Shown in pieces: positions 2,176 through 58,058 of a DNA stretch of 64,000 nt; position 1 is the stretch's first letter; every line of letters starts with the position of its first letter. Origin of the DNA: a virus; the IMG/VR virus record IMGVR_UViG_3300028833_000003. One strand, given 5' to 3'. Under the pieces are notes generated by a model. That model was not told the DNA's origin. It ran no database searches and was given only the letters and a program-made list of their open reading frames with translations. The translations under genes were made by a program, and so were the position numbers.

Positions 2176-2529
2176 ATGTCTAAAAGCGAAGAGTTCTTGA
2201 ATTTCTGGAATTATTTGGTTCATGATGTAGCAGGTGATATTGATGTGCCTGAGAATGTGCAGGCATACATTGATGCACTAAGTGGTAATGAGAAAAAGGA
2301 GAAACCCTTATTTACCGATAATGGTAAAGTAATTTTGCAATGGTTGCAAGGTGCGCCGGACGCTTATTATAAATCAAAAGACATTGCTGAACAAGTTGGT
2401 TTGGCATCGAAGTCTGTGGCTGGCGCAATGAGAAAGTTGATTACAGATGGATTTGTTGAAAAAGTAGGCAAAGATCCAGTACTGTATATGATTACATCAA
2501 AAGGAAAAGAAATTAATATTGAGGAGTAA
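2176..2529 (+). CDS. MarR-like winged-helix protein
   Basis: KVILQWLQG...SKDIAEQVGLASKSVAGAMRKLITDGFVEKVGKDPVLYMITSKG fits a wHTH plus wing pattern. It is the first gene behind P3. Confidence 0.55.
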   Translation: MSKSEEFLNFWNYLVHDVAGDIDVPENVQAYIDALSGNEKKEKPLFTDNGKVILQWLQGAPDAYYKSKDIAEQVGLASKSVAGAMRKLITDGFVEKVGKDPVLYMITSKGKEINIEE

Positions 2530-3485
2530 TGATTATGAAAAAGACAATGAACAATGTGCATCTCGAAGGTTATGTGTATGATATTGACATGAAGGAAGCA
2601 GTTACTGGTGAAAGATCAAAAGTTCCTGGCACTAAGTATCTGCGCGGCACCATTCAGATTTGTACTGATGAAGTTGGCGCGAATGTATGCCCAGTTTATA
2701 TTTCTTATGCTACTCCTGTGACACCGGCTGGTCGTGCAAATGAGACTTATAACATCTTGTCTAAGCTCATGAGTGGGGAATACTCTACTTGGATGAATGG
2801 TGGCAAGGATAATGCCTGCCGTGTTCGTATTGATACTAGCATTGGCGTAAATGATTTTTATGCAACTGATGGAACTCTTGTTTCTCAGGTTCGTAATGAG
2901 AACGGTTTCCTCCATATTATGACCGAGGATTTCAATGAGGATACCAATCAGCGCGCTTCTTTCCAGGTTGATACGGTTATTACGAATGTAATTGAGAAGG
3001 AAGCAGACCCTGAGAGAGAGATGCCTGCACATGCTTTGATTAAGGGTTATACGTTTAATTACAATGGGTCTAAGATTATGCCTGTTGATTTTATGATTAC
3101 TAAGCCCGATGGTATTCGGTTCTTCCTTAGTATCGGTGCTTCTAATGCTAAGCCTTATTTCACGAAGTTGAGTGGTCATCAGACTTCTCGTACTGCTCAA
3201 ATTAAGGTTGAGGAAGAAAGCGCATTTGGTGACCCAATTGTTCGTTTCCGTTCTATTTCTCGGAAGGCATATGTCGTTGATAGTTGCTTGAAGCAGCCTT
3301 ATCTGTGGGATGATGCTGAAACGATTACTGCGGCTGAGTTTAAGAGTAAGTTGGCTGACCGTGATGTTGAGCTTGCTGCTTTAAAGCAGAGTTCAGATGA
3401 GTATCGTAAGAACCGTGCGGCTGGTGGTACTGCAACTGCTACAACCACGGCTGCCGCAAGCACTAATGCACTTTATGATTTTTAA
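2529..3485 (+). CDS. Putative ssDNA-binding (OB-fold-like) protein
   Basis: The N-terminus NNVHLEGYVYD is SSB-like. An Ala/Thr-rich linker precedes a C-terminal ..ALYDF tip that resembles SSB protein-interaction tails. Its position is upstream of the recombinase-like ATPase. The start could be 2529 or 2535. Confidence 0.4.
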   Translation: MIMKKTMNNVHLEGYVYDIDMKEAVTGERSKVPGTKYLRGTIQICTDEVGANVCPVYISYATPVTPAGRANETYNILSKLMSGEYSTWMNGGKDNACRVRIDTSIGVNDFYATDGTLVSQVRNENGFLHIMTEDFNEDTNQRASFQVDTVITNVIEKEADPEREMPAHALIKGYTFNYNGSKIMPVDFMITKPDGIRFFLSIGASNAKPYFTKLSGHQTSRTAQIKVEEESAFGDPIVRFRSISRKAYVVDSCLKQPYLWDDAETITAAEFKSKLADRDVELAALKQSSDEYRKNRAAGGTATATTTAAASTNALYDF

Positions 3486-3502
3486 TTAAGGAGGGCACAT
3501 AA

Positions 3503-4507
3503 ATGGCTAATGCATTGCTCTCTATTAAACCCCACGAAGTGTCTAAGGACCTTCGTGGGTATAGTGTCCTTTTGTACGGCACACCCAAAAGCGGTAAAAC
3601 TTCTACCGCAGTTCAGTTCCCTAAACATTTGCTTCTTGCTTTTGAAAAGGGTTATAGCGCAATTCCCGGCGCGATGGTTCAGCCAATTAACTCTTGGAAT
3701 GAGTTTAAAGCAACTTTGATTGACCTTCGAGACGAGGATGTTAAAAAGACTTATGAAACCATCATTATTGATACAGCGGATATTGCTTATGATTACTGCT
3801 GTGAATATGTTGCTAGCTCTTATGATAAAGCATCTATTAGCGAAATCCCTTACGGTAAGGGATACGAGCTTGTCATGACCGAATTTGATAAAGGTATCCG
3901 TAAAATCCTACAAATGGGTTACGGCCTTGTTCTTATCTCTCACGCTCAGGAACGCACTGATAAAGATGTTGATGGTTCAGATATTGTGCGGTTGATGCCT
4001 ACTCTTGATAAACGTGGGCGCTTGATTTGCGAACGTACTTGTGACATTGTTGGTCTTATTAAGCCTGCTCGTGGAGCAGACGGTATTGTTCGTAGCAGAA
4101 TGTATATGCGCGAAACACCAGAATATCAGGCCGGTTCTCGTTTCAAGTATATGGTCGATAGCATTGACCTTAGTTATGATAATCTTGTAAAAGCCATCTC
4201 AGATGCTATTGAAAAAGAAGAGCAGATGACTGGTGGAAAATATGTAACTGCAACACGTGAGCAAGTTTATACTGAGGCTCCTAAGCCCGATGATGAAGAT
4301 GATTTGCTCGCAGCCCAAGAAGAATTTAAAACTGTTGCTAGTCAGCTATTGACAAAAAATCAGGCTAATCGCACCAAGATTGCCGCAGTAATTCTCCAAT
4401 ATCTCGGCAGAGATGAGAGCGGAGCACCGCGGAAAGTCACTGAAACCGAGGTAAAGGATGTTCCTGCAATTAGACTGATTAATAAAGACCTCGGCAGTTT
4501 GCTATAA
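3503..4507 (+). CDS. RecA-superfamily ATPase, AAA_24 / Sak4-like
   Basis: Walker A YGTPKSGKTS, Walker B IIIDTAD and LVLISHAQ are present. SD is AAGGAGGG. Confidence 0.6.
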   Translation: MANALLSIKPHEVSKDLRGYSVLLYGTPKSGKTSTAVQFPKHLLLAFEKGYSAIPGAMVQPINSWNEFKATLIDLRDEDVKKTYETIIIDTADIAYDYCCEYVASSYDKASISEIPYGKGYELVMTEFDKGIRKILQMGYGLVLISHAQERTDKDVDGSDIVRLMPTLDKRGRLICERTCDIVGLIKPARGADGIVRSRMYMRETPEYQAGSRFKYMVDSIDLSYDNLVKAISDAIEKEEQMTGGKYVTATREQVYTEAPKPDDEDDLLAAQEEFKTVASQLLTKNQANRTKIAAVILQYLGRDESGAPRKVTETEVKDVPAIRLINKDLGSLL

Positions 4508-4520
4508 ACAATATTTCAAA

Positions 4521-4553
4521 TCAACCGAGACAAAAATCTCGGTTGATTTTTTT
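4521..4553 (+). terminator. Intrinsic terminator
   Basis: A 10-bp perfect stem TCAACCGAGA / TCTCGGTTGA with a 6-nt loop is followed by T7. Its descending arm supplies the -35 of P4. Confidence 0.7.
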
Positions 4554-4571
4554 CTAAAATTATGATATAAT
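4543..4571 (+). promoter_or_regulatory. Early promoter copy P4
   Basis: TTGATT at 4543-4548 and TGaTATAAT ending at 4571, 17-nt spacer. Confidence 0.65.
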
Positions 4572-4592
4572 ATATATAAGGAAGGTGAGATA

Positions 4593-5117
4593 GTGGCGCA
4601 TTATGTGCATTGTGTATTTTGTAATGAGCGTTTTGATCGTGATAAAGTGCCATGTGTAGCAATAAGTCAGCGACGCTATGCTCATACGGATTGTGCAACT
4701 GCCGCCGAAGCAGGAAAATCAAAAGAAGAGCATGATTATGATGAATTAGTTGCATATATTAAGAAATTATTTGATATAACACAATTATCACCAAAGATAA
4801 ATAAACAAATTCAAGTATATCATGATGAAAATAATTTTTCTTATAGCGGCATCCATAAATCATTGGTTTATTTTTATGAAGTAAAAGGTAATTCAATAGC
4901 AAAAGCAAATGGCGGTATTGGTATTGTCCCGTATGTATATGATGTGGCAAAACAATATTACACTGCAATTTGGATTGCTAATCAGCAAAATAAAGAAAAA
5001 GCACAAGCAATTTTACCAGAAATGGTACAGACGAAAACAGTAGTAATTACAATTCCTCGTCCAGTACCAAAAAAGAAAGCACCATTTAGTTTTTTGGACG
5101 AGGAGGCAGTTGAATAA
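4593..5117 (+). CDS. Zinc-finger protein, possible replication initiation/helicase-loading factor
   Basis: GTG start after AAGGAAGGTGAG. It has a CxxC...HxxC cluster (HCVFCNERF...YAHTDC). It lies directly upstream of the DnaB-like helicase and is translationally coupled to it. Confidence 0.4.
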   Translation: MAHYVHCVFCNERFDRDKVPCVAISQRRYAHTDCATAAEAGKSKEEHDYDELVAYIKKLFDITQLSPKINKQIQVYHDENNFSYSGIHKSLVYFYEVKGNSIAKANGGIGIVPYVYDVAKQYYTAIWIANQQNKEKAQAILPEMVQTKTVVITIPRPVPKKKAPFSFLDEEAVE

Positions 5118-6658
5118 TGGCATCTAAATATGTAGATACAACTGCAATTATCCAGGTAATTGGTAATATATTTAATAATCCAACATTGTTGGATAATACT
5201 GAACAGGAATACAGTTTATCAGAAGCAGACTTCCCAGAAGACTTCCACAAAGTGTTAATCGGTGCAATTTATAAACTATATACAAGTGGAGTTAATCCTA
5301 TACGATTAACTGATATAGTAGATTATTTGGAAAGTCGGCCCAAAAGTAAAGCAATTTTTGAAGTTAATCATGGTGAAGATTATTTGCATCATATCTCTAA
5401 AAATGCAAATGCTTTAACATTTAACTATTATTATGCAAGATTAAAAAAATTTTCTCTTTTAAGAGCGTATGATGATTTGGGTTTTAAATTAGAAGAATAT
5501 TATGACCCAGACACATTAGATAGTAAGAAAAAAGAAGAACAAGAAGAATGGCTTGATAATACTTCACTTGAAAGAATTGCTGATTGTTTTGAAGCAAAAA
5601 TTGAGTCCATTCGAGAACAATATACTACTGATACATCTTATAATCATTCATATAGCGCTGGCGATGGCATTGTTGAATTGATTAAGAAACTGGAAGAGCA
5701 TCCAGATGTTGGTGTTCCACTGTATGGGCAGTATATATCAACAATAACGAGAGGCGCGCGACTTGGAAAATTATACCTTAGATCCGCTCCAACGGGCGTT
5801 GGTAAAACTCGTAGTATGGTGGCGGATGCTTGTTATATCGGCTGTAATAAGATATATGATAAAGATTTTGGTATGTGGATCAACAACGGACAAGCGCTAC
5901 CAACAGTGTTTATCGCTACTGAACAGGATAAAGAAGAGATACAGACTTTGATGCTGGCTTTCTTATCCAGCGTTGATGAAAGACATATCTTAATGGGACA
6001 GTATGAAAATGATGAGCGTGAGAGAGTTATGGAAGCGGCAAAAATTATTCAAGAGTCACCAATGTGGATTGAAGAGCTACCGCAATTCAATTTGCAAGAC
6101 GTAGAGAATACTGTCAAACGCGCAATTAGAGAACATGATGTAAGATATATCTTTCATGATTACATTCATACCAGTTTAAAGATTTTGGAAGAAATTAGTA
6201 AGCGCGCTGGTAAAATAGCATTACGTGAAGATAATATTTTGTTTATGTTATCAGCCCGCTTAAAAGAAATTTGTGAAAAACATAATGTTTTTATGATGAC
6301 CGCAACACAGTTGAACGGCGATTGGAAAGACAGTAAAACACCTGACCAGAATTTGCTGCGTGGCGCAAAAGCAATAGCAGATAAGATTGACTATGGTAGT
6401 ATTTTATTGCCAGTCACAGATGATGATTTAACTAAAATTCAAAGCATTATTGGCGCGAACCCACGATGGACCGCGCCGAACCTGAAATTGTCTGTTTATA
6501 AAAATAGACGAGGAGAATATAAAAGTGTATTATTGTGGTGTAAAGCTGACTTAGGCACTTGTCATATCGACCCGATGTTTATGACAGATTATTCATTTAA
6601 TTTGATTCCTATTGAAGATTTAAAAATTATGTTTGAAGAAGAGGAGCGTGTATTTTAA
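5117..6658 (+). CDS. dnaB: DnaB-like replicative DNA helicase
   Basis: 513 aa with Walker A APTGVGKT and a RecA-like C-terminal domain (IFHDYIH, MMTATQLN). The N-terminal helical domain is DnaB-like. Confidence 0.7.
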   Translation: MASKYVDTTAIIQVIGNIFNNPTLLDNTEQEYSLSEADFPEDFHKVLIGAIYKLYTSGVNPIRLTDIVDYLESRPKSKAIFEVNHGEDYLHHISKNANALTFNYYYARLKKFSLLRAYDDLGFKLEEYYDPDTLDSKKKEEQEEWLDNTSLERIADCFEAKIESIREQYTTDTSYNHSYSAGDGIVELIKKLEEHPDVGVPLYGQYISTITRGARLGKLYLRSAPTGVGKTRSMVADACYIGCNKIYDKDFGMWINNGQALPTVFIATEQDKEEIQTLMLAFLSSVDERHILMGQYENDERERVMEAAKIIQESPMWIEELPQFNLQDVENTVKRAIREHDVRYIFHDYIHTSLKILEEISKRAGKIALREDNILFMLSARLKEICEKHNVFMMTATQLNGDWKDSKTPDQNLLRGAKAIADKIDYGSILLPVTDDDLTKIQSIIGANPRWTAPNLKLSVYKNRRGEYKSVLLWCKADLGTCHIDPMFMTDYSFNLIPIEDLKIMFEEEERVF

Positions 6659-6660
6659 AA

Positions 6661-6906
6661 ATGGCAACGATTGCGAAAGAATTGGTTTATAGCAAAGGAC
6701 ACAAGAAAGTAATTCGCGGACGTGAATTGCAATATGTGATGCCTCTTGAAGAATATCGTGCTATCGCTGGTCAGGGACCGAAGAATATGAATTCTCCTGA
6801 TTATGTGCTGGATTATCTTAATGAAGCTGGTGGCTTTCTTGGAACTGTCACTAAAATCGTAACAGAAGATACGCCCATCCATATTATTCATAACTTAGAG
6901 GAGTAA
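6661..6906 (+). CDS. Hypothetical protein (81 aa)
   Basis: Intact ORF packed tightly between the helicase and the primase. Confidence 0.4.
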   Translation: MATIAKELVYSKGHKKVIRGRELQYVMPLEEYRAIAGQGPKNMNSPDYVLDYLNEAGGFLGTVTKIVTEDTPIHIIHNLEE

Positions 6907-6908
6907 TT

Positions 6909-8012
6909 ATGTATTATTATGACAAGGACGAAATCAAAAATAAACTCACTACTGATATGATTTTTGAGTGTGTCCAGGATTGTGGCGGTTCTCCTAACCG
7001 CACCCCATTCGGCTTTATATCCGCCACAATCTGTCATAATAAATATGGAGAAGGTTCTCACAAATTGTATTATTATGAGAATACTCGTTTGTTTAGATGT
7101 TATACAGGTTGTGACGCGACATTTGATATTTTTGAATTAATTACTAAAATTCATAAGATTAATCATCCGGAAGATACTGAATGGTCTTTGTATAGCTCAG
7201 TTTGTTGGGTAGCGCAAAAGTTTCATTTTGCTCCTACAAATACAGTAACAAAAGAAGCAGGTAAAGAATTACCAGAGTGGGGATTATTTGAACGGCGCGC
7301 ACAATTTAAATTAACAGAAGAACAACCTCGTATTCAGTTACCAGAATTTCCAAAAACTATTTTATATAATTTGCCACGCCCGATTGTTCCTGACTGGATA
7401 AATGAAGGCATGACGCAAGAAGCAATCAATCATCATATGATTGGTTATTATGCACCAACAGAGCAATTAACTATTCCGCACTTTGATATAGATGATAGAT
7501 TTATAGGATTGCGCGGGCGAGCACTCGGTGAAGATGGTGCGCAATATGGTAAATATCGCCCAATGATGATTAGTGGTAGAATGTATAATCATCCATTGGG
7601 TTTAAATTTATATAATATTAATAATGCTAAAACCGCAATACAAAAGATACGTAAAGCAATTATCTTTGAAGGCGAGAAAAGCGCCATTTTATATGAATCA
7701 TATTTTGGACAAGAAAATGATATTTCTGTTGCGTGTTGCGGTTCTAACATTAGTAGTTATCAAATTAAATTATTATTAGACCTCGGAGTGGAAGAAATTA
7801 TTATCGCGTTTGATAGACAGTTTCAAACGCGAGGGGATGAAGAATTTAAACATCTAACTCGAAATCTAACTTCCATAAACAAAAAATATAGGCCGTATGT
7901 ATTAATCTCTTTTATCTTTGATAAAACGGATTTACTGCCCTATAAAGCATCCCCAATAGATTTAGGTAAAGACGTTTTTTTGAAGATGTTTAAGGAGAGA
8001 ATTATTCTATGA
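6909..8012 (+). CDS. dnaG: DnaG-like DNA primase (zinc finger + TOPRIM)
   Basis: Zn-binding pattern CHNK..(x)..CYTGC is present. TOPRIM-like motifs are IIFEGEKSAI and IIAFDRQ. Confidence 0.65.
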   Translation: MYYYDKDEIKNKLTTDMIFECVQDCGGSPNRTPFGFISATICHNKYGEGSHKLYYYENTRLFRCYTGCDATFDIFELITKIHKINHPEDTEWSLYSSVCWVAQKFHFAPTNTVTKEAGKELPEWGLFERRAQFKLTEEQPRIQLPEFPKTILYNLPRPIVPDWINEGMTQEAINHHMIGYYAPTEQLTIPHFDIDDRFIGLRGRALGEDGAQYGKYRPMMISGRMYNHPLGLNLYNINNAKTAIQKIRKAIIFEGEKSAILYESYFGQENDISVACCGSNISSYQIKLLLDLGVEEIIIAFDRQFQTRGDEEFKHLTRNLTSINKKYRPYVLISFIFDKTDLLPYKASPIDLGKDVFLKMFKERIIL

Positions 8013-9760
8013 AATATAAGTTGATTAATGAACAAACATATAGTGATTGGATAGAACAGGTTTTACACAATCGTGGTTTAACTGATAGAGAGATACATCT
8101 TTATTTAAATCCATATGAGTCATTGGAGCACGATTGGCGTGAATTATCACATATAGGAGATGCGGCGTATCAAGTAGCAATGGCAATCGCGCAGCAAAAG
8201 AAGGTATATGTACAAGTCGATTGCGACTGCGATGGCTATACCTCTGCCGCGGCACTATTAAATTATTTATGGTCATTATTTCCAGCTACTATTGAAAATA
8301 ACTGGACGTGGGGACTTCATGCTAATAAAGAACATGGCATTGAAGTAGAAGCAGTAAAAACATTAATCCCCTCTGGCTTACATATGGTAATTGCGCCTGA
8401 TAGTTCAAGTAATGAGCATGACATACATAAAGAACTATTAAATGATTGGAATATTAAAACAATAGTATTAGACCACCATGAAGCAACACCTGATGCAGAA
8501 GACCCCGCGTATATTGTAAATAATCAAATGTGCAATTATCCAAATAAAACATTAAGTGGCGTTGGCATTGTTTATAAATTCTGTGAAGCATTTGATGAGA
8601 TGTTTGGTTTTAATAATCATACGCAGATTTTAGACTTAGTTGCTCTTGGTATGATTGGTGATATGATGGATATGCGTTCATTAGAAACTCGATATTTAAT
8701 TACTGAAGGTCTAGCATATCCGCAAAATCCATATTTTACTGGAATGTTAATGAAACAGCAATACCAGCTGCAAGATAATTTTACGCCATTTAATATAGCA
8801 TTTTATGTTGTGCCATATATTAATGCAATTACAAGAGTAGGAACACAAGAAGAAAAAGAATTAATCTTTCAAGCATTATTAGATTTTAAAGCGCATAATT
8901 TAATTGTTTCTACAAAACGTGGTGACGCACCTGGGACTATGACTGAACTAGTAACACAAGCTGTGCGGGTGTGCGGCAATGTGAAGGCACGACAGGAACG
9001 AGAAAAGAAAGCAGTAATTGACCAATTAGATGATATGATTGTAAATAATCGTCTTACAGATTATCCAGTGATTATTTGTGAGATGAAAGAACCAATAGAT
9101 GCAAATCTCACTGGCTTAGTTGCTAACTATGTAATGGCTAAATACGGTAAGCCAACACTTATTCTTAATTGGCGCGATGACCATTGGGCTGGTAGCGGTC
9201 GCGCATTTCCAATAGCCGAAGTAGAGAATTGGCGTAATTTTTTTGAGAACGATTGCTCAGTTATATATGCGCAAGGACATGCTAATGCTTTTGGTATCGC
9301 AATGACTGCGGAGCAATTACAAGAATTAAAACAGCAAATGAACACTTGGTCTTTTGTAATTACTCCTATTCATGACGTTGATTTTGTATTTAATGCTAAA
9401 TCTGAATTGTTGGTACATTGTATTAAACGTCTTACTGAACGCGGCGATTTGTGGGGACAAGGAGTAAGCGAACCAGAAATTTGTGTTGAGCATGTAAAAA
9501 TAGATGCGAAACAAATTCATTTATTTTCTCCTGATAAAAAACCTACCATTCGTTTCGATTTGCCGCACAATATCGCAGGAATGATTTTTAATACAACGCA
9601 AACAGTATATGATAAATTAGTCAGTATGATACCTGAGATGGGTGCGATTGAATTAAGGATTATTGGTAAGGCATCATTAAATAATTATAATGGGAATATT
9701 ACACAACAAATCATAATCTCTGACTATGAAGTAACAAATGTGATAGACCTTGACTTTTAA
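8009..9760 (+). CDS. RecJ-like DHH-family ssDNA exonuclease
   Basis: DHH motifs DCDCDGYTSAA, APDSSSNE, VLDHHE and GMIGDMMD are present, plus a DHHA1-like region with GHANAFG. Confidence 0.75.
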   Translation: MKYKLINEQTYSDWIEQVLHNRGLTDREIHLYLNPYESLEHDWRELSHIGDAAYQVAMAIAQQKKVYVQVDCDCDGYTSAAALLNYLWSLFPATIENNWTWGLHANKEHGIEVEAVKTLIPSGLHMVIAPDSSSNEHDIHKELLNDWNIKTIVLDHHEATPDAEDPAYIVNNQMCNYPNKTLSGVGIVYKFCEAFDEMFGFNNHTQILDLVALGMIGDMMDMRSLETRYLITEGLAYPQNPYFTGMLMKQQYQLQDNFTPFNIAFYVVPYINAITRVGTQEEKELIFQALLDFKAHNLIVSTKRGDAPGTMTELVTQAVRVCGNVKARQEREKKAVIDQLDDMIVNNRLTDYPVIICEMKEPIDANLTGLVANYVMAKYGKPTLILNWRDDHWAGSGRAFPIAEVENWRNFFENDCSVIYAQGHANAFGIAMTAEQLQELKQQMNTWSFVITPIHDVDFVFNAKSELLVHCIKRLTERGDLWGQGVSEPEICVEHVKIDAKQIHLFSPDKKPTIRFDLPHNIAGMIFNTTQTVYDKLVSMIPEMGAIELRIIGKASLNNYNGNITQQIIISDYEVTNVIDLDF

Positions 9761-9778
9761 ATAAAAATATGATATAAT
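9750..9778 (+). promoter_or_regulatory. Early promoter copy P5
   Basis: TTGACT at 9750-9755, inside the last codons of the upstream gene, and TATAAT at 9773-9778, 17-nt spacer. Confidence 0.7.
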
Positions 9779-9802
9779 AAATATAGAAAATAGTAGGAGA
9801 TT

Positions 9803-10999: not shown

Positions 11000-11024
11000 T
11001 TTTTTTAAAAAAGTATGATATAAT
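10996..11024 (+). promoter_or_regulatory. Early promoter copy P6
   Basis: TTGATT at 10996-11001 contains the upstream TGA stop. TATAAT is at 11019-11024, 17-nt spacer. Confidence 0.7.
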
Positions 11025-11057
11025 ATATATAGAATAAGGAAGAAAGAGGATTGTTGT

Positions 11058-14936: not shown

Positions 14937-15579
14937 GAATGTAAAAACTATCATTGCTATATGCGGTAAATCTGGGTCTGGTAAAGACTCACTTGAAAAA
15001 TTAATGTGTAAGTTGGTTCCTATCGCGCATCCAATAGTCAGTCATACTACCCGCCCCAAGCGGGAGTATGAAACTGACGGCGTAGATTATCATTATGTTA
15101 CTGATGAACAATTCTTAGATTTGGTCGTTCAAGGACAAATGCTAGAAGCAAGTTATTTCAATCATTGGCATTATGGAACTAGTTTGTCCTCTCTACAAGA
15201 CGGATTAAATGTTGGAGTATTTAATCCAGATGGGCTAGATGCTCTTTTGGAAAGCTCACGAGAGCGTAAAGATTTATTTGTACTATGCTATTATCTGGAT
15301 GTAGATGGCAAAACACGCTTGCTGCGTCAGCTGAACCGAGAAGAGCACCCTGATGTTGATGAAATTATTCGTCGATATAGCACTGATGAAGTTGATTTTG
15401 GTGATATTAATCTATTCCCAATTACTGCACTAATTAATGATACTCCAACTGACTTATATGATAATATTTTAATTATCTTAGATGATATTAAAAATTATAC
15501 TTCTCTTTTTGAAAAAGATGAATATTATGATACAGTAAGAAAGGTCATTCACGCGCGAGACAATGACGGTGCATGGTAA
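14929..15579 (+). CDS. Guanylate kinase-like nucleoside-monophosphate kinase
   Basis: P-loop GKSGSGKDS and SHTTRPKREYETDGVDYHYV, which matches the GK signature. Confidence 0.7.
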   Translation: MNENVKTIIAICGKSGSGKDSLEKLMCKLVPIAHPIVSHTTRPKREYETDGVDYHYVTDEQFLDLVVQGQMLEASYFNHWHYGTSLSSLQDGLNVGVFNPDGLDALLESSRERKDLFVLCYYLDVDGKTRLLRQLNREEHPDVDEIIRRYSTDEVDFGDINLFPITALINDTPTDLYDNILIILDDIKNYTSLFEKDEYYDTVRKVIHARDNDGAW

Positions 15580-15647: not shown

Positions 15648-17885
15648 ATGGGTTTAGAAATTATAAAACGTAATGGTAATTTAGTTCCTTTTGATAAACA
15701 GCGTATTATTGATGCAATTAATAAAGCATTTATTGAAGTCGATGGAAAACTATTTGAAACTGACACTTCACGTAGTATCGCTGATGATGTAGAAAAATAT
15801 GTTGCAATGTAGGGCGAACCAATTCACGTTGAAGCAATTCAAAATATGATTGAGTTCTACCTTATGCAAAGCGAACGTAGAGACGTTGCTAAGGCTTATA
15901 TTCGTTATAGATATAAAAGAGAAATTGCACGTTCATATAACGCAGAGTTTATTGAAGAGATTGGTAAGAAATTACAAGCAAAAAATATTGAAAATCAGAA
16001 CGCGAATGTAGATGAACATTCATTTGGTGGCAGAAAAGGTGAAGCTACAAATTTGTTGATGAAACAGTATGCGCTTGACTTTCTTATTAGTCCTCGTCAC
16101 GCATATAATCACTTGCATAATCGTATCTATATCCACGATTTAGATGCCTATGCAGTTGGTATGCACAACTGTTTATCAATTCCTTTTGATGATTTGCTTG
16201 CGAAAGGCTTTAATACGCGACAAACTGATATTCGTCCTGCAAACAGTATTAATACTGCTTTCCAACTTGTCGCTGTTATATTCCAGTTACAGAGCTTACA
16301 ACAGTTCGGTGGCGTCTCAGCAACTCATTTAGATTGGACAATGGTTCCATATGTTCAAAAGTCATTTGCTAAACATTTTAAAAAGGGCTTGCGCTGGACT
16401 GAAAAAGCGCCTGCCGATTATATTGAAAATGTTCCTGATATGATACCTATTGAGTCACCTATCGCGCAGGACTGGGTTAATGCTTATAAATATGCTATGG
16501 CTATGACAGAGCAAGAATTAAAGCAAGCCGTAGAAGGTATGTATCATAATCTCAATACTTTACAGTCACGCAGTGGCAATCAGTTACCTTTCACTTCTAT
16601 TAATTACGGCACATGCACGCTTCCAGAAGGCCGTTTGGTTATTGAAGCATTATTGAATGGTTCTATTGATGGTGTAGGTAAATTACATCGTACTCCTATT
16701 TTCCCTTGCGGTATTTTCCAAATGATGAAGGGTGTTAATAGAACACCTCGTGACCCAAATTATGATTTATATAGATTAGCATTGCAATCAACAGCAAAAC
16801 GTTTATATCCTAACTATGCTAATGTTGATTGGAGCGGCAATGCCGGTTATGACCCAGCTGATCCAAAAACTTATTTCAGCACTATGGGTTGCCGCACTAG
16901 TAATGGTTTAGATATAAATGCAGAACCTGGTACTAATCCTCAGACCAAAGATGGCCGTGGGAATATCTGCCCAGTAACTATCATTCTCCCTACTATTGCT
17001 ATGGAAGCAAAAGCAGCGTATAAAGATGATAACATTACTAATGATACGATTATTGATTATTTTATGAGATTTTTAGGCAGCGCCATTGAAGATGCAAGAG
17101 ATTGTTTATTAGAACGTTTTGACTATATTTGTTCGCAATCTCCTGAATCTGCCAAATTTATGTATGAAAATGGCACAATGCTCGGGTATCATCCAGAAGA
17201 AGGCATCCGTTCTGCTTTAAAACATGGTACAATTGTTATTGGTCAGCTCGGTTTGGCAGAGTGCTTGGAAATTTTAATTGGTAAAAACCAGACTACCGAT
17301 GAAGGTATGGCTTTGGCCAAACAAATAGAACAATTATTTAAAGAGCGTTGTGCAGAGTATAAGCAACAGTATAAATTAAATTTTGGTGTTTATTATACCC
17401 CTGCTGAGAATCTTTGCTATACTGCTATGAAATATTTCAAACAACAGTATGGTGAAATTAAAAATGTATCTGACCATGAATATTTTACCAATAGCATCCA
17501 TGTACCAGTATGGGAGCATGTTGGTGTGCTTGATAAAATTGAAATTGAAAGTCAATTAACTGGTTATAGTAATGCAGGTTGTATCACTTACGTAGAACTT
17601 GATAGCGGCATTGCTAATAACTTAGACGCTTTGGATTAGATTGTCCAGTTTGCTATGGACAAAGATATTCCATATCTTGCTATTAATGTTCCTAATGACA
17701 CTTGTTTAGAGTGTGGTTATACTGGTGAATTTAATGATAAATGCCCGATGTGTGGCAGCACGCATTTACAGCAATTGCGGCGTGTTACTGGTTATTTAAC
17801 TGGCGATTATAAAACCGCATTTAACTGGGGCAAACAAAAAGAAACAGAAGCAAGAGTAAAACACGTTAATGAATTAAAGGAGTGA
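15648..17885 (+). CDS. nrdD: Anaerobic ribonucleoside-triphosphate reductase (2 in-frame TAG)
   Basis: Three same-frame fragments are joined by TAGs at 15810 and 17637.
- N-terminal ATP-cone (IIKRNGNLVPFDKQRIIDAI...AKAYIRYRYKRE)
- catalytic core
- C-terminal Zn ribbon CLECGY..CPMCGS plus the glycyl-radical motif RRVTGYL
- SD TAGGAGGG. Confidence 0.9.
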
Positions 17886-17889
17886 GAAC

Positions 17890-18372
17890 ATGCGCTACGC
17901 AGGAATTATATATGATGATACCGCCGCAGCGCCGGGTTTAAGTCTCACATTCTTTACCCAAGGTTGTCCTATTCATTGCCCGGGTTGCCATAACCCGGGC
18001 ACTTGGGACCCAGATGGCGGACGTGAATTTACACCAGAAGTATTAAGTAGAGTATTAGATGGACTTACTAAAAATGGTGTAACTCGTAATTTTTGTATTA
18101 TGGGCGGAGAACCGTTAGCTCCATATAATGTTTTTCTTACACATCTATTGGTAAAAACAGTAAGAGAAAAATATCCGCAAATTCAAATTTATTTATGGAC
18201 TGGTTATACATTGGATCAAGTAAAAGAAAATGCAAAGAGCAATCCACATATTGACGCAATTCTATCTAATATAGATTGCATCATTGATGGACCATTCATT
18301 CAATCACAACGTGATATTACATTATTTATGCGCGGTAGTGCCAATCAAAGAATTACATATTTGACGGAATAA
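17890..18372 (+). CDS. nrdG: Anaerobic RNR activating radical-SAM protein
   Basis: The sequence ..PGLSLTFFTQGCPIHCPGCHNP.. is characteristic of NrdG. The gene is adjacent to nrdD. Confidence 0.85.
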   Translation: MRYAGIIYDDTAAAPGLSLTFFTQGCPIHCPGCHNPGTWDPDGGREFTPEVLSRVLDGLTKNGVTRNFCIMGGEPLAPYNVFLTHLLVKTVREKYPQIQIYLWTGYTLDQVKENAKSNPHIDAILSNIDCIIDGPFIQSQRDITLFMRGSANQRITYLTE

Positions 18373-18389
18373 AAAAAATATGATATAAT
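18361..18389 (+). promoter_or_regulatory. Early/middle promoter copy P7
   Basis: TTGACG at 18361-18366 lies inside the last codons of nrdG. TGaTATAAT ends at 18389, 17-nt spacer. Confidence 0.65.
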
Positions 18390-18418
18390 GTACATAGAAA
18401 ATATAAGGAGCTAATAGC

Positions 18419-19155: not shown

Positions 19156-19414
19156 TATGGCTTATCTTTTGAATACAGTAGAAACGTATCAGGTAGCAAC
19201 TGAGCAAGAAGCACTTAATATGCGTGAAGCGTTTTCTAATCAACCTGAGTATGAATTAGAAAGTTTTAGTTATACTTGTAAATATGATAAAAAGGCTGAT
19301 GAAGACTATGTAGTTGTTAAAGTAAAGAAGTTTGTCAATAAAGAAAAAGATTGCAAACGTGATGTTATAACTAGTATTCTTCCAAGAGCCGGAATAGGAG
19401 ATACCACATGGTAA
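19147..19414 (+). CDS. Hypothetical protein (88 aa)
   Basis: ATG at 19147 lies 6 nt after GAGGAGG. The TAA stop overlaps the dut start. Confidence 0.45.
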
Positions 19415-20010
19415 TTGATGCAGAATTTAAATGTGTAAAACAATATGAAGGTTAGGAAGAGCAACTACTTCCTAGACGCGCAACCGCGGGCTCTGCTGGA
19501 TATGATTTTATTGTAGCAGAAGATACAATAGTCCCAGCAATGGAAAAACAATTTTTTGATTTTGAAAAAAGATACCAAGCCTATGTGAAAGAACGGTATC
19601 AGAGCTTTGAAGACTACGCTAAAACTGAAACAGAAGATGGCGCGCTTTCTTTGGATAGGTTAAAGCAATTCTGTAAGTTATGGAAGATTAAACCCACACT
19701 TGTTCCTACTGGCGTTAAGGCAAGAATGCCAAAAGACTATTATCTGCAATTAAGTGTGCGGTCGAGCCTACCTTTAAATGATTGGCTTATTCTTGCTAAT
19801 GGCGTAGGCATTATAGATAGCGATTACTATGATAATCCCGATAATGAAGGGCATATTTTCTTCCAATTAATCAATCTCCATCCTGCTGACATTATTCTCC
19901 ATAAAGGTGATAGGATTGGACAAGGTGTGTTTCTCCCCTACTACACCGTGCTATCTGAAAACACTGTGGTTGATGAACGTACTGGCGGGTTTGGTTCTAC
20001 AAATGGCTAA
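19408..20010 (+). CDS. dut: dUTPase (trimeric type) with ~48-aa insertion (1 in-frame TAG)
   Basis: Reading TAG at 19453 through restores LPRRATAGSAGYDF (motif I/II). It is followed by LVPTGVKA, VRSSL, GIIDSDYY and ERTGGFGSTNG. Confidence 0.8.
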
Positions 20011-20491
20011 AATTCTCGCATATGACCAGGCTTCGAGAGTATCGGGCTGGTCATTTTTTGTTGATGGGGAGTTAAAAGACTACGGGCACTTTTCCTTTGA
20101 ATTTACAAACTTTGCTCTTCGCTTGCTTAGGATTTGTTAGCAAATGGAGGAGCAAATTAAGAAATACGAGCCAGACGTTATCCTATTAGAAAATATTTCT
20201 CTAGAAGGGAGAGGACCCGTTAATGTATCTACTTTTTAGAAGCTCGCGCAAGTGCAAGGCGCAATGATGATGACTGCGCAAGCGCACGATATTGAAGCAA
20301 AATTAGTTTATCCAAGTGAGTGGAGAGCGAAATGTAATTTCCTTAAAGGTGAAGATAAGCACCGAGATAATTAGAAACGTATCGCTCAATAGTGGGTTCT
20401 ATCAACATTTAATAAAAAATGCACACAAGATGAGGCGGATGCAATATGTATAGGATATAGCGAAACAGCTAATGAAATGATGACGTGGTAA
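20003..20491 (+). CDS. ruvC: RuvC-like Holliday junction resolvase (4 in-frame TAG)
   Basis: ILAYDQASRVSGWSFF (catalytic Asp), VILLENIS (Glu) and DEADAICIG (Asp-Asp) are present. TAGs are at 20138, 20237, 20372 and 20390. The stop is TAA at 20489. Confidence 0.7.
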
Positions 20492-20561
20492 TTAAATGGG
20501 TAGGTCTAGTTGGAAGACATACCCTATTTTTTATATTCAACGAGAGGAGGGTGCTGCCAAT

Positions 20562-21038
20562 ATGGAACAGTATGATTTGCTGGAATACTTTCTAAAATGG
20601 TTTATTCCCTTCGCTTGTGCTGGATTGTTTGCGGTGTGTGTCAAACCACTAATTGATGCTATTAAACGCGGCAAACGCAGTGCGCGCGATGAGGAATTTA
20701 AACGTGCTTTTGAGCATGAAATTGCTCCTGTATAGGAATAGTTACAAACTATTGCTACCAAGAGTGAAAGAGAGGATAGTCGTTTAGAGGGGAAAATTGA
20801 CGGGCTGTCCAAAGAAATTCAGCAGGCCACCGCCGGTTTGCGCGAAGCCATTTTGGTTACTCACTTACGAGATTTAATCGCAGACAGCAAGCGCTATATA
20901 AATCAAGGTTGGTTATCAGCCGATGAGTGGGAAGATTATGATAACAGATATAACGTATATAAAATGCTCGGCGGAAATGGACATATGGATGCTTGGTACC
21001 CCAAAGTAAAAAATTTACCGCAACATCCAGTTATATAA
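20562..21038 (+). CDS. Membrane protein with N-terminal TM helix and coiled coil (2 in-frame TAG)
   Basis: ATG at 20562 after GAGGAGG. The TM segment is FLKWFIPFACAGLFAVCV. TAG GAA TAG lies at 20733-20741. It is the last gene of the + arm and faces the lysis cassette. Confidence 0.5.
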
Positions 21039-21089
21039 AAAAAAATAAAGGGACGTAGATAAAAAATCTACGTCCCTTTATTTTTTTTT
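21038..21089. terminator. Bidirectional intrinsic terminator between convergent arms
   Basis: A 13-bp perfect stem AAAGGGACGTAGA / TCTACGTCCCTTT is flanked by an A-run on the left and a T-run on the right. Confidence 0.75.
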
Positions 21090-21492
21090 ACCCTACAACA
21101 GGTGTTTTCTTTTCATTAACCAATGATTCAATATATGCCTTAGTGAATAGATCAAAATCACCTACGACCGCGGTTAGATACTGCTTAGCATCTTCACTTA
21201 ATACTGTAATTACGCTATTGTAAGTTAATTGAAATGCTTCTTTCTGTGCTTCCGCAGTGAAAGCATTTTTATTCTTTAAAGCATTAACATAAGTTTGGTT
21301 CGTCATTTCTACGCAACGAGCAACTGTATCTTCAAACATACTTAAATACTTGTAATATACAGTATCCTCTTGACCAGCTTTATAATTGTCGATCTTTGCG
21401 CGAACCCACTTAACAAAATAAGTAGTCAATATCCCCAAAAAAGGAATGATAACTAACTTAAAAATCTCATTTAAAATTTCAGCCCAATTCAT
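21088..21492 (-). CDS. Holin, LL-H-like family
   Basis: The start is chosen at MNWAEILNEIFKLVIIPFLGILTTYFV, 9 nt after GGAGG. One N-terminal TM helix is followed by a helical ..NQTYVNALK..FTAEAQKEAF.. tail typical of LL-H holins. TAA stop. Confidence 0.55.
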   Translation of the reverse strand: MNWAEILNEIFKLVIIPFLGILTTYFVKWVRAKIDNYKAGQEDTVYYKYLSMFEDTVARCVEMTNQTYVNALKNKNAFTAEAQKEAFQLTYNSVITVLSEDAKQYLTAVVGDFDLFTKAYIESLVNEKKTPVVG

Positions 21493-21712
21493 TGTCATAA
21501 TCCTCCGAATTATCTTCTTCGTTATTATCACTAATTGCTGCTGCATCTTGTATTTCTTTGTATGTTTCACTTATCTTTTTATAATTCTCAATACCTGCTT
21601 TTGCAGTATAACCCAAACGTAAGGAAACATATACTGTTGTTACACCAGCCAAGGCGCTTGAACCAAAAGATGCTAATCCTTGATTAATAACAACAATAGC
21701 AAGAATTGCCAA
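21479..21712 (-). CDS. Small membrane protein (second holin/antiholin candidate), start unresolved
   Basis: The track ORF starts at a TTG, but the hydrophobic helix (IIDIVVYAVSLLAILAIVVI) extends upstream to about 21750 with no ATG/GTG/TTG. It has a second TM (FGSSALAGVTTVYVSL), an acidic tail and a TGA stop. Confidence 0.4.
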   Translation of the reverse strand: MAILAIVVINQGLASFGSSALAGVTTVYVSLRLGYTAKAGIENYKKISETYKEIQDAAAISDNNEEDNSEDYDNELG

Positions 21713-21764
21713 GAGTGATACAGCATATACGACAATATCTATAATAGTAAGTCGCTTACTCCAT

Positions 21765-23183
21765 TCAAGCGGTCGCTGTTGTCGCTTTCGCTAATTTTTG
21801 GAGCGCTGCTACTAATTCTTTTGCTTCTATCTCACTTGAACACGCCACCTTTACATACCAAGATTTTGGTGTATCAGGTGTGGTAGGTTCAACAGGCACA
21901 GATACAGGAATTAAAAATTCATTCATCATATATCCGGTCTGTCCGTTATACATAATGCGGTCCCATTCAGTGCCATGATCAATAATATCAACAATAGTCC
22001 CAGTTGATATTTTTGCTATTACACCAAAATTAGTGCCCGCGCCAGAACGCATACGCACTGTCGTGCCGCTTTTTGATTTTACTGTTGCCTAGTATAACAC
22101 TGATAAAACCTCCCCTTCTGATGTACCAGCATTTGCTAGTTCTTCTGGTGTATATAAACCCGCGGGGATTGCATAGTGCGTCCAGCCATATGTACCTAAT
22201 TCTTGACGTTTAACGCCAGACTTGCTACCAGCTGCATGCATAAAAGTGCCATCGCCCAGATAAACACCAGTATGTGACATTGGATTAGATGTTGGTGATT
22301 CATGATATAAAGCACAAATCTTATCTTTTGGCATCTAATCAATTGGTCCTTTTCGCACCCAGATACTTGATTTCCATTGTGAAGATGCGCCAGATACTAA
22401 GGAAATACCAATTTGCGCGAAGCATAACTTCGTAAATCCTTGGCAATCATAAACCTACTTACCGAGCCACTTCTTTACAATGTTATAATCAACTTTGTCT
22501 GGATATTGAGCAATACGCGCACGAATAAATTGTTCGGTTGCAATTTGTCCTTGAGCACCATAGATATAACCACAACCTTCTTTACTTAACGCATACTCTC
22601 TGATTACTTTCTCTTTCTCCTATGAGGTCATTACTTCAAATACCTCCTTTACTACTGCACCAGGATAATAAAATTGTAAAATATCCTAATATGTAAAGCC
22701 CATATTTGCCATCTTCTTTGCGCCAACTTGGCTCATACCAACACAATGTCCATTGCGCGCAGTAGTTGTATAGGGGTCATCTTTACTAACTAGCCAAGCG
22801 CGTTCTCCACCCCAGACTTCTTTAGAGCTTTTTATATGTCCGCCATTGCTAGAAGAGAAAGGCACTGGGCTACATAAAGTGTTTTTATATGTTAAAACTA
22901 ATGCATTAGTTGCTTCAACACAACGATAAGTAGCAGCATAAGCATTATCAATTGATCTCGAATATCGATATGCCTAATGCTTAGCGCTATTATCTGTCAT
23001 ATTTTTAATAGTATAAGCATTAGTTCGTGCGGCAATTGCTTGGGCTTTTACAGCTTCATCCGGCCCATTCATTTCACTAGGAACACAACCTAGCAAATAT
23101 GTTTCTGGATGAATATTGATCGTGTCATTAACATTAACGCCCCAAGCTTCCGCATTACTTTCTCTTGTTAAAGTTAATCTCAT
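21765..23183 (-). CDS. Multidomain lysin: SpoIID-like + NlpC/P60 + SH3 (6 in-frame TAG)
   Basis: It is one open frame with no TAA/TGA, checked codon by codon. TAGs appear as cta at 22974, 22686, 22620, 22455, 22335 and 22086.
- SpoIID motif: HCVGMSQVGAKKMANMGFTY.DILQFYYPG
- NlpC/P60 motifs: VYDCQGF and HTGVYLGDGTFMHA
- SH3: VRMRSGAGTNFGVIAKI..
- an internal AAGGAGG-ATG at 22631 precedes the P60 part. Confidence 0.8.
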
Positions 23184-58057: not shown

Positions 58058-58058
58058 A

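What the first reader, a model, noticed from the sequence alone, without database searches (positions are those of the whole stretch)
2176..23183. Recoding is partitioned: the replication core has no TAG, and TAG use starts at nrdD and peaks in RuvC, lysis, accessory and baseplate genes
All counts here are by hand.

The 13 genes from 2176 to 15579 (about 4,450 codons, running from a wHTH protein through Pol III alpha to the kinase) contain no TAG in frame. The leftward arm has about 122 TAGs in about 14,100 codons (about 0.9%), so about 38 would be expected in the core at that rate.

On the + strand TAG first appears in nrdD, which is promoter-distal in the P6 operon. It then occurs in 4 of the 7 genes of the last operon (P7), where RuvC has 4 in 162 codons.

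Within the late arm the density varies more than 10-fold:
- 1/661 and 7/2681 in the two genes that follow the hairpin leaders
- 16/794, 15/936, 7/327 (rSAM) and 6/472 (lysin) elsewhere

This fits a model in which early replication genes are translatable under the host code. Nucleotide-metabolism, resolvase, lysis and virion genes would then be gated by a phage suppressor.
Basis: partly seen in the sequence, partly recalled or inferred. Interest (0 to 1): 0.65.

Follow-up and report, generated by a model that had tools for sequence, protein, structure and literature searches.

The report
TAG-free early genes in recoded phage
This sheep-gut phage reads the stop codon TAG as glutamine but keeps about 33 kb of replication genes free of TAG. 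That is a clean, conserved example of an already published idea: such phages use the codon to delay late, lysis and DNA-cutting proteins until their own suppressor tRNA is available.

Summary
From 2176 to 15579 there are 11 genes (not 13) and 4,393 codons, with no in-frame TAG. The leftward arm has 121 TAGs in 13,895 codons, so about 38-44 would be expected in the core (p about 1e-15 or less).

The pattern is conserved. In 15 related phage contigs the core orthologues carry 7 TAGs in 51,238 aligned codons. RuvC carries 4-8 TAGs in each of the 12 relatives that hold it (43% of its Gln codons).

TAG sits at conserved Gln columns and replaces CAG, so this is genetic code 15.

The window is part of a 168,974-bp sheep-gut phage genome. 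That genome encodes a tRNA(CUA) about 23 kb upstream of the window, on the early strand.

Corrections to the finding:
- NrdD, NrdG and dUTPase have no TAG in any relative, so the conserved exceptions in the early arm are two nucleases, RuvC and a GIY-YIG endonuclease.
- The holin is always TAG-free, although the neighbouring endolysin is recoded.
- The TAG-free block extends about 17 kb beyond the window's left end.

The model is the one published by Borges et al. (2021 preprint; 2022), so this is a new member of a known kind. Timing of expression was not tested.

The parts
830..1837 (+). GIY-YIG homing-endonuclease-like gene (335 aa) with 3 in-frame TAGs. It is a TAG island inside the otherwise TAG-free early arm.
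   Evidence: Pfam GIY-YIG 4e-9. PHROG homing endonuclease 5e-21. Orthologues carry 5 TAGs in L006 (one at the conserved YVGQAVD) and 5 in L034 over a full-length alignment. The source assembly calls it as 335 aa.
2176..15579 (+). TAG-free replication core, SPbeta yorF-yorL-like module. Genes: wHTH 2176-2529; YorF-like 2529-3485; Sak4/AAA_24 3503-4507; YorH-like 4593-5117; DnaB 5117-6658; small ORF 6661-6906; primase 6909-8012; RecJ 8009-9760; Dda-like helicase 9803-10999; Pol III alpha 11058-14936; guanylate-kinase-like 14929-15579.
   Evidence: 0 TAG in 4,393 codons. Domain hits; Pfam YorF and YorH names. Orthologues carry 7 TAGs in 51,238 codons.
15648..17885 (+). NrdD (anaerobic ribonucleotide reductase) with 2 TAGs, at codons 55 and 664. 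These are specific to this lineage.
   Evidence: Pfam NRDD 1e-142. PDB 8p23 7e-118. 0 TAG in 14 relatives.
17890..18372 (+). NrdG activase, no TAG.
   Evidence: Pfam Fer4_12 and Radical_SAM. 0 TAG in 12 relatives.
18361..18389 (+). Sigma-70-like promoter match with extended -10 (TTGACG-17-TG-TATAAT), upstream of the last + operon.
   Evidence: 11 of 12 matches. This is a consensus match only.
19408..20010 (+). dUTPase with 1 TAG. It overlaps the RuvC start by 8 nt.
   Evidence: Pfam dUTPase 3e-15. 0 TAG in 12 relatives.
20003..20491 (+). RuvC-like Holliday-junction resolvase with 4 TAGs in 162 codons. It is the conserved TAG hot spot of the early strand.
   Evidence: Pfam RuvC. PHROG resolvase 8.5e-13. 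Each of 12 relatives has 4-8 TAGs: 73 TAG against 98 CAA/CAG. TAG sits at the conserved columns ALD#AT and TF#KL. Its general codon usage is core-like.
20496..21038 (+). Unknown 180-aa gene, the last of the + arm, with 2 TAGs.
   Evidence: Relatives carry 11 TAGs in 1,548 codons.
21040..21086 (.). 20-bp hairpin with U tracts on both sides, between the two convergent arms. It looks like a bidirectional terminator.
21088..21546 (-). Holin, TAG-free.
   Evidence: PHROG 13712 holin 2e-25. 0 TAG among 67 Gln codons in 10 relatives, against 23 TAG and 85 CAA/CAG in the lysin; Fisher p = 1e-5.
21765..23210 (-). Endolysin (SpoIID + NlpC/P60 + SH3) with 6 TAGs.
   Evidence: Relatives carry 2-9 TAGs.
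23183..25702 (-). Accessory late genes: fn3-like 23183-24343 (7 TAG); small ORF 24367-24753 (0 TAG); radical-SAM 24719-25702 (7 TAG).
25796..41965 (-). Three giant fibre-like virion genes of 1,953, 781 and 2,612 aa, with 14, 12 and 20 TAGs.
   Evidence: PHROG virion structural protein for the 781-aa gene.
42810..53164 (-). The TAG-poor late genes: 42810-44795 (661 aa, 1 TAG), the small ORF 44885-45100 (71 aa, 0 TAG) and 45119-53164 (2,681 aa, 7 TAG).
   Evidence: The two large genes have 8 TAGs among 124 Gln codons, against 113 of 334 in the rest of the arm; p = 2e-10. Their CAG share and GC3 are intermediate. Only weak PHROG hits and no Pfam hits.
53239..63616 (-). Baseplate or tail genes with 4, 3, 5, 1, 16 and 15 TAGs. 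This includes the two densest genes: 58425-60809 (16/794) and 60806-63616 (15/936).
   Evidence: Orthologues in L020 are also recoded.

Best explanation
The window is 64 kb of a roughly 169-kb phage genome from the sheep gut. The phage probably infects a Bacillota host and uses genetic code 15, in which TAG is read as glutamine.

The phage carries its own amber-suppressor tRNA (anticodon CUA). It lies in a tRNA array at the head of the early strand.

I infer the following from the evidence:
- About 10,000 codons of replication and DNA-metabolism genes, from about 17 kb left of the window to position 15579, are kept free of TAG by purifying selection. They must be translated by the unmodified host apparatus, where TAG still terminates.
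- Genes needed late have let about a third of their Gln codons drift from CAG to TAG. These are virion parts, the endolysin and, conspicuously, two DNA-cutting enzymes (RuvC resolvase and a GIY-YIG endonuclease) that sit inside early-strand operons.
- Such genes can be completed only once the suppressor tRNA has accumulated.
- Several TAGs in one gene would multiply the block, so the number of TAGs could set the threshold.

Shown here: the partition, its conservation, Gln-like decoding, and the presence of the tRNA.

Inferred, not shown: the host's code, the timing of expression, and that TAG actually gates translation.
For: 1. The core has 0 TAG in 4,393 codons against 121 in 13,895 in the late arm.
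2. In the phage's own genome the TAG-poor block runs for 10,460 codons with 4 TAGs, 3 of them in GIY-YIG.
3. Orthologues in 15 IMG/VR relatives:
   - core: 7 TAGs in 51,238 codons, about 0.4% of Gln codons
   - RuvC: 73 TAGs against 98 CAA/CAG (43%)
   - lysin: 21%
4. Gyrase, ligase and RNase H orthologues are TAG-free.
5. TAG alternates with CAA/CAG at conserved Gln columns of RuvC, RecJ and GIY-YIG. Aligned partners are most enriched for Gln. A BLOSUM partner test ranks Q and E top and S, L and Y low.
6. (TAG+CAG)/all Gln is about constant: 0.37 in the core, 0.28 in the two TAG-poor late genes, 0.41 in the other late genes. So TAG replaces CAG.
7. RuvC has core-like general codon usage (GC3 0.32), so its TAG load is not a by-product of late-gene composition.
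8. tRNA(CUA) at L047:2196-2288 in the same genome:
   - ARAGORN at default settings; Rfam tRNA 55.8 bits
   - orthologues in 5 further phage contigs, with three compensatory stem changes
   - it directly follows a TAG-free gene, with a sigma-70-like match upstream
9. RNA contigs from sheep-gut metatranscriptomes match the DNA over TAG-bearing genes, so there is no sign of editing.
10. The same model is published for other recoded phages.
Against: - No expression timing was measured. 'Early' and 'late' rest on gene function and strand only.
- The suppressor tRNA sits on the early strand near a host-type promoter match. The switch would therefore depend on accumulation, not on late transcription.
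- The TAG-free state is not absolute in relatives. RecJ has a TAG at a conserved Gln in 4 contigs.
- In this genome NrdD carries a TAG at codon 55.
- The holin, a classic late and lethal gene, is TAG-free.
- Two large late genes are TAG-poor.
- Genes next to the tRNA array on the early strand do carry TAGs.
- The tRNA has a long variable arm and a conserved A1-C72 mismatch, which is not a Gln-tRNA shape. Which enzyme charges it, and with what, is unknown. Glu cannot be excluded from the alignments alone.
Confidence: 0.72

Rival explanations
1. The driver is efficiency, not timing. Suppression competes with release factor 1, so each TAG costs yield. TAG is then purged from genes whose full-length yield matters most and tolerated elsewhere, with no temporal switch.
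For: - The suppressor tRNA lies on the early strand and may be present from early on.
- The holin and two giant late genes are TAG-poor.
- A few TAGs are tolerated in RecJ and NrdD.
Against: - Virion genes needed in large amounts, and genes of 2,000-2,600 codons, carry 14-36 TAGs.
- RuvC keeps 4-8 TAGs in every relative, including one conserved in 11 of 13 sequences. That looks maintained rather than merely tolerated.
Confidence: 0.13
2. The pattern reflects mosaic origin. The replication module, and perhaps the two TAG-poor late genes, were acquired recently from a standard-code SPbeta-like phage or from bacteria and have not yet accumulated TAGs.
For: - The module is SPbeta yorF-yorL-like, and its Pol III alpha is 37% identical to the polymerases of standard-code Bacillus and Enterococcus phages.
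- Core genes have a higher GC3 and CAG share than late genes.
Against: - The TAG-free state persists in relatives whose core proteins have diverged to 38-71% identity. That is ample time for CAG-to-TAG transitions.
- Such transitions did occur (7 cases) but stay rare.
- RuvC and GIY-YIG sit in the same operons with similar codon usage, yet are TAG-rich.
Confidence: 0.05
3. TAG acts as a containment device rather than a timer. In-frame TAGs keep nucleases, lysin and virion genes silent wherever the phage's own tRNA is missing, for example in abortive or partial infections, after transfer to other genomes, or when another phage tries to use them.
For: - The most consistent TAG islands in the early arm are two nucleases, one of them a mobile-element-type endonuclease.
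- Borges et al. discuss related ideas.
Against: It does not by itself explain why replication genes must avoid TAG. It overlaps with the timing model and is hard to separate from it with sequence data.
Confidence: 0.07
4. The host itself decodes TAG as an amino acid, and the phage simply mirrors it.
For: None found here. The host was not identified.
Against: - Under that reading there would be no reason for a conserved TAG-free block of 10,000 codons, nor for the phage to carry its own tRNA(CUA).
- From my own knowledge, no Bacillota lineage with TAG read as Gln is known.
Confidence: 0.02

Closest known systems
Stop-codon-recoded gut phages using code 15 (TAG read as Gln), as described by Borges et al. 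(bioRxiv 10.1101/2021.08.26.457843; also crAss-like and Lak phages)
   Same: - In-frame TAG is concentrated in structural and lysis genes.
- The replication machinery is in standard code.
- The phage encodes a suppressor tRNA.
- The host is predicted to use the standard code.
- A homing endonuclease inside an early gene region is preferentially recoded (Agate phages).
- The proposed role is a translational delay of late genes.
   Different: - This lineage comes from ruminant guts and has an SPbeta-like Pol III alpha replication module.
- I could not test whether it belongs to one of their named clades.
- The conserved hot spot in the early arm is a RuvC resolvase, which that paper does not mention (0 hits for 'resolvase').
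- The holin is TAG-free, whereas their most biased families were lysis proteins.
- The suppressor tRNA has a long variable arm and is split by a group I intron in half of the orthologues.
Phage Phass-1 (OQ749652; Babkin et al. 2023, PMC10607447)
   Same: It is a TAG-recoded phage of about 136 kb, associated with Clostridia hosts, with tRNA-Sup(CTA) genes. Its Pol III alpha-type polymerase is 37% identical to the window's.
   Different: It is only a distant relative, with no nucleotide similarity. It comes from the human gut and has three suppressor tRNA genes. Nothing I read of that paper (abstract and the passages holding my search terms) analyses an early/late partition; 'early' occurs nowhere in its main text.
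SPbeta-family replication module (yorF-yorL) of Bacillus phages
   Same: The gene order is the same: YorF, AAA_24, YorH, DnaB-like helicase, primase, RecJ-like exonuclease, Pol III alpha (YorL). Support comes from Pfam YorF/YorH hits and a 37% tblastn identity to SPbeta yorL.
   Different: SPbeta phages use the standard code. The virion and lysis modules here are unrelated to theirs as far as tested.
Delayed translation of phage T4 endonuclease VII (gene 49). Recalled from memory, not checked here.
   Same: A junction-resolving nuclease is transcribed with earlier genes but is kept from being translated efficiently until late.
   Different: In T4 the block is an mRNA hairpin over the start site. 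Here the inferred block is a run of in-frame TAG codons.

Membership tests
Code-15 (TAG read as Gln) recoded phage | In-frame TAGs interrupt otherwise intact, conserved genes, and reading through them restores full-length proteins. | tested here: met
   ORF coverage rises from 0.83 to 1.17 when TAG is read as sense. NrdD, RuvC, lysin, rSAM and dUTPase give full-length domain hits when TAG is read as Q.
Code-15 (TAG read as Gln) recoded phage | TAG corresponds to glutamine in homologues. | tested here: met
   TAG alternates with CAA/CAG at conserved columns of RuvC, RecJ and GIY-YIG. Gln is the most enriched partner. The BLOSUM test ranks Q and E top. Glu is not strictly excluded, and no peptide evidence exists.
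Code-15 (TAG read as Gln) recoded phage | The phage encodes a suppressor tRNA with anticodon CUA. | tested here: met
   L047:2196-2288 in the window's own genome, about 23.2 kb left of window position 1. There is no tRNA inside the window itself.
Code-15 (TAG read as Gln) recoded phage | The host uses the standard code. | not testable with these tools
   The host was not identified. Bacillota is inferred from the lysin domains and from polymerase and NrdD relatives.
Recoding partitioned by infection stage (Borges model) | Replication (early) genes are compatible with the standard code, while structural and lysis genes are recoded. | tested here: met
   Exceptions: the holin is TAG-free, and two nucleases in the early arm are recoded.
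Recoding partitioned by infection stage (Borges model) | TAG-bearing genes are translated later than TAG-free genes, and this depends on the suppressor. | not testable with these tools
   Only bulk metatranscriptome contigs are available. They show transcription of both arms but no timing and no translation.
Named clades of Borges et al. (Garnet, Amethyst, Topaz, Agate) | Placement in the terminase phylogeny. | not tested
   The terminase lies outside the 99 kb of this genome that I could read, and no reference sequences of those clades were on hand.
SPbeta-like replication module | yorF-yorL gene set in conserved order. | tested here: met
   Pfam YorF (PF27337) and YorH (PF26927) on the source contigs, AAA_24, DnaB, primase, RecJ and Pol III alpha, and tblastn to SPbeta yorL.

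The most novel reading that the evidence does not exclude
The number of TAGs in a gene may act as a graded translational timer. This phage lineage would use it specifically to hold back DNA-cutting enzymes (RuvC resolvase, GIY-YIG endonuclease) that are co-transcribed with early genes. The timer would be driven by an atypical suppressor tRNA(CUA) with a long variable arm and a conserved A1-C72 mismatch. In about half of the relatives this tRNA must first remove a self-splicing group I intron from its anticodon, which would make the code switch depend on splicing. Intron-split suppressors of this kind would also help explain why Borges et al. found a suppressor tRNA in only about 40% of TAG-recoded phage genomes.
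Probability: 0.3. Interest if true: 0.7.

Novelty: new member of a known kind. Interest (0 to 1): 0.42.

Why it matters
This lineage gives a clean comparative test of the stage-specific genetic code idea. Replication genes stay TAG-free over deep divergence, while a resolvase in the same operons keeps 4-8 TAGs.

- It points to nucleases, and not only lysis proteins, as targets of this control.
- It shows that the holin escapes the control.
- It supplies a defined tRNA(CUA), with and without an intron, that could be tested directly.

It also has a practical side. Standard gene callers fragment these genomes: the JGI calls of the same genome break the 936-aa protein into pieces of 87 and 184 aa. 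Default tRNA scans miss the intron-split suppressors.

Tried and rejected
- Megablast of 22 kb against GenBank phages found only a 75% NrdD match to Thomasclavelia phages, so there is no annotated close relative.
- NrdD aligned to solved structures: the two TAG positions fall in variable columns, so this does not identify the amino acid.
- tRNA scans of the window and of 23 related loci around Pol III and the left flank found no suppressor. Relaxed ARAGORN runs gave mostly false positives.
- Some relatives have no tRNA array at the syntenic place.
The route that worked was to get protein ids from the listing of cluster members and then use the look-up of encoding contigs.
- A search for relatives of the TAG-poor 661-aa gene hit only an Ig-like domain in unrelated phages. 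Pfam gave nothing for that gene or for the 2,681-aa gene. Whether their low TAG density is conserved therefore stays open.
- A strand-bias explanation is rejected: RuvC, g22 and GIY-YIG on the + strand are TAG-rich, and the holin on the - strand is TAG-free.
- RNA editing of TAG is rejected at the consensus level.
- Ser, Leu or Tyr decoding, which the tRNA's long variable arm might suggest, is rejected by the aligned-residue spectrum.

Full report
**What the window is**

The window is AT-rich (35% G+C) and encodes no tRNA. Reading TAG as sense joins fragmented ORFs into a compact two-armed gene map.
- A rightward arm, 495-21038, carries DNA replication and nucleotide-metabolism genes.
- A leftward arm, 63985-21088, carries holin, endolysin, accessory genes and very large tail, fibre and baseplate genes.
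- The arms meet at a 20-bp hairpin flanked by U tracts at 21040-21086.

They add two: a holin (21088-21546) and a GIY-YIG endonuclease (830-1837).

The replication module has the gene order of the SPbeta yorF-yorL operon. Its polymerase is 37% identical to those of SPbeta-type Bacillus phages, Enterococcus phages and the TAG-recoded phage Phass-1.

**The observation**

The leftward arm has 121 TAGs in 13,895 codons.
- At that rate 38 TAGs are expected in the core by codon count, or 44 by Gln sites. Fisher p = 5e-15 and 5e-19.
- Off-frame TAG trinucleotides are about as frequent in the core as elsewhere, so only the reading frame avoids TAG.
- The 10-fold spread within the late arm is significant. 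The two TAG-poor genes against the rest give p = 2e-10.

The fraction (TAG+CAG)/all Gln is 0.37 in the core, 0.28 in the two TAG-poor late genes and 0.41 in the other late genes. CAG itself falls from 37% of CAA+CAG in the core to 11% in the TAG-rich genes. The same inverse relation holds in relatives.

**Conservation**

A scan of IMG/VR with Pol III alpha returned 15 related contigs (63-79% identity; contigs up to 193 kb). I read their ORFs with TAG as sense, aligned them to the window's proteins and counted TAGs inside the aligned parts.

| Orthologue set | TAGs | Aligned codons or Gln codons |
|---|---|---|
| Core | 7 | 51,238 codons (about 0.4% of Gln codons) |
| NrdD, NrdG, g17, g19, dUTPase | 0 | 15,655 codons |
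| RuvC | 73 | against 98 CAA/CAG; 4-8 per gene in every relative |
| g22 | 11 | 1,548 codons |
| Endolysin | 23 | against 85 CAA/CAG |
| Holin | 0 | 67 Gln codons (Fisher p = 1e-5 against the lysin) |

The model passes that test. The conserved exceptions in the early arm are RuvC and the GIY-YIG gene, which has 3 TAGs here and 5 in each of two relatives.

RuvC overlaps the end of the TAG-poor dUTPase gene by 8 nt, and its general codon usage is core-like. Its TAG load is therefore specific to the gene and not a regional property.

**What TAG means**

In the RuvC alignment TAG alternates with CAA/CAG in conserved columns (ALD#AT, TF#KL, IAQ#W). One TAG column is kept in 11 of 13 sequences.
- The rare TAGs in RecJ of relatives fall on conserved Gln residues (AQGH, YVQVD). 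One GIY-YIG TAG falls on YVGQAVD.
- Over all aligned positions Gln is the most enriched partner. A BLOSUM score ranks Q and E top and S, L and Y low.
- Metatranscriptome contigs from sheep gut match the DNA across TAG-bearing genes, so nothing suggests editing.

This is genetic code 15 as described for other gut phages. Glu is not formally excluded.

**The rest of the genome and the suppressor tRNA**

The window is 100% identical to part of an ENA sheep-gut contig of 168,974 bp. A JGI assembly of 168,960 bp also exists, which suggests a complete genome. I read a further 25 kb to the left and 9.6 kb to the right.

To the left, the + strand continues with ligase, gyrase A and B, RNase H, a deoxyribosyltransferase, kinases and unknown genes.
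- From about 17.0 kb left of the window to position 15579 there are 10,460 codons with 4 TAGs, 3 of them in GIY-YIG.
- Orthologues of these genes in relatives are TAG-free too.
- Further left lies an array of 11 tRNA genes interspersed with small genes, some of which do carry TAGs.

One of the 11 tRNAs, at L047:2196-2288, has anticodon CUA.
- It is 93 nt long, with a long variable arm, an A1-C72 mismatch, G73 and an encoded CCA.
- ARAGORN calls it at default settings, and Rfam scores it at 55.8 bits.
- It lies about 23.2 kb upstream of window position 1, on the same strand as the replication genes.
- It directly follows a TAG-free gene and is preceded by a sigma-70-like match with an extended -10.

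Orthologues occur in five more phage contigs, with three compensatory stem changes. This supports a functional tRNA.
- Two of the five are uninterrupted, like the copy in the window's own genome.
- Three carry a 173-176-nt insert between U35 and A36. The one I tested, in L024/L052, matches the group I intron model (40.7 bits, full model length), with the 5' exon ending in U and the insert ending in G.

To the right of the window, the next large virion gene has 36 TAGs in 2,216 codons.

**How it most likely works**

The data fit the published model (Borges et al., bioRxiv 10.1101/2021.08.26.457843, section 8 and discussion).
- Genes that must work before the code switch are kept in standard code.
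- The phage supplies a suppressor tRNA.
- Genes with in-frame TAGs are completed only afterwards.

What is shown here is the partition, its maintenance over deep divergence, Gln-like decoding and the presence of the tRNA. What is inferred is the standard-code host, the timing, and that TAG limits translation.

Because the tRNA sits on the early strand near a host-type promoter match, the delay would come from accumulation of the tRNA against release factor 1. Several TAGs per gene would multiply the block, which would suit RuvC with its 4-8 TAGs.

A resolvase or homing-type endonuclease made too early could plausibly cut replication intermediates. Borges et al. noted a recoded intron endonuclease in an early gene of Agate phages. 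A recoded resolvase is not mentioned there, and I did not find one in my searches.

**Points that do not fit neatly**

- The holin is never recoded.
- Two large late genes are TAG-poor, for reasons I could not resolve. Their CAG share and GC3 are intermediate, and no orthologues could be retrieved.
- RecJ in four relatives and NrdD here tolerate TAG.
- The suppressor tRNA does not look like a tRNA-Gln.

**Rivals**

- An efficiency-only account (TAG costs yield) is weakened by the heavy TAG load of abundant and very long virion genes, and by TAG columns conserved in RuvC.
- Recent acquisition of the replication module is weakened by the persistence of the pattern at 38-71% protein identity, and by TAG-rich genes embedded in the same operons.
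- A TAG-decoding host is contradicted by the partition itself and by the phage's own tRNA.
- A containment role, keeping dangerous genes silent without the phage's tRNA, overlaps with the timing model and cannot be separated from it here.

**Verdict**

This is a new, well-behaved member of a known kind. It has three details worth following: the nuclease islands, the TAG-free holin, and an atypical, sometimes intron-split suppressor tRNA.

Noticed in passing
Outside the window: L047:2196-2288 (own genome, about 23.2 kb left of window position 1). Orthologues at L050:5321-5410, L053:2450-2539, L049 about 7560-7830, L051 about 5540-5810, and L024:4832-5097 (= L052).: The amber-suppressor tRNA(CUA) has a long variable arm and a conserved A1-C72 mismatch. 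In 3 of 6 orthologues it is split between U35 and A36 by a 173-176-nt insert; the L024/L052 copy, the only one tested, matches the group I intron model. Default tRNA scans miss the split copies.
   Followed up: partly
window 21088-21546 (-): The holin is TAG-free here and in all 10 relatives that have it, while the adjacent endolysin is recoded.
   Followed up: yes
L049:7110-7174, L050:5788-5855, L053:2912-2981: The orphan Rfam motif cow-rumen-4 RNA (55.8-73 bits, above its gathering score) lies about 370-400 nt upstream of the suppressor tRNA in three relatives. I did not find it in the window's own genome. cow-rumen-3 RNA is also present: above its gathering score at L050:1062-1157, and as a weak hit at L024:8035-8166.
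   Followed up: no
L024:1752-2104: A relative carries a full-length tmRNA gene (95 bits) inside its tRNA array. It also carries a second group I intron (L024:7488-7673, 65.5 bits) and a tRNA with a 55-nt insertion (L024:5277-5407).
   Followed up: no
L047:2307-2413 and L047:8468-10000 (own genome, left of the window): A weak Y-RNA-like (YrlA) hit (32 bits, below threshold) lies directly after the suppressor tRNA. A similar weak hit is at L050:4002-4101. A DUF2828/DUF7788 protein is encoded 6 kb downstream. This may be a Ro/Y-RNA-type pair, but I did not test that.
   Followed up: no
window 9774-11010: Contigs from one DNA run and one RNA run join 9774/9790 to 11003/11010. This skips the Dda-like helicase gene (9803-10999) and suggests a population variant that lacks it.
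   Followed up: no
window 42085-42792 and 42810-44795 (-): The two adjacent genes share an N-terminal region (HLAE..FF.VPRYFD.MDL) and look like paralogues, but they differ in TAG use: 3 TAGs in 235 codons against 1 in 661.
   Followed up: no
window 4593, 41965, 42792: Three genes appear to start with GTG or TTG (YorH-like with GTG, the 2,612-aa fibre gene with TTG, the 235-aa gene with GTG). Their exact starts are uncertain.
   Followed up: no
window 14543-14609: A 65-nt skip inside the end of the Pol III alpha gene appears in contigs of all three runs laid on the window. The shorter side of the joint is only 21 nt, so it is probably an assembly-graph artefact. I did not examine it.
   Followed up: no
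L047:477-8365 (own genome, left of the window): The + strand genes around the tRNA array carry TAGs: a PG_binding protein 3, a 380-aa protein 5, a xanthine/uracil permease 2. The early strand is therefore not uniformly TAG-free. The four genes nearest the suppressor tRNA have none.
   Followed up: partly
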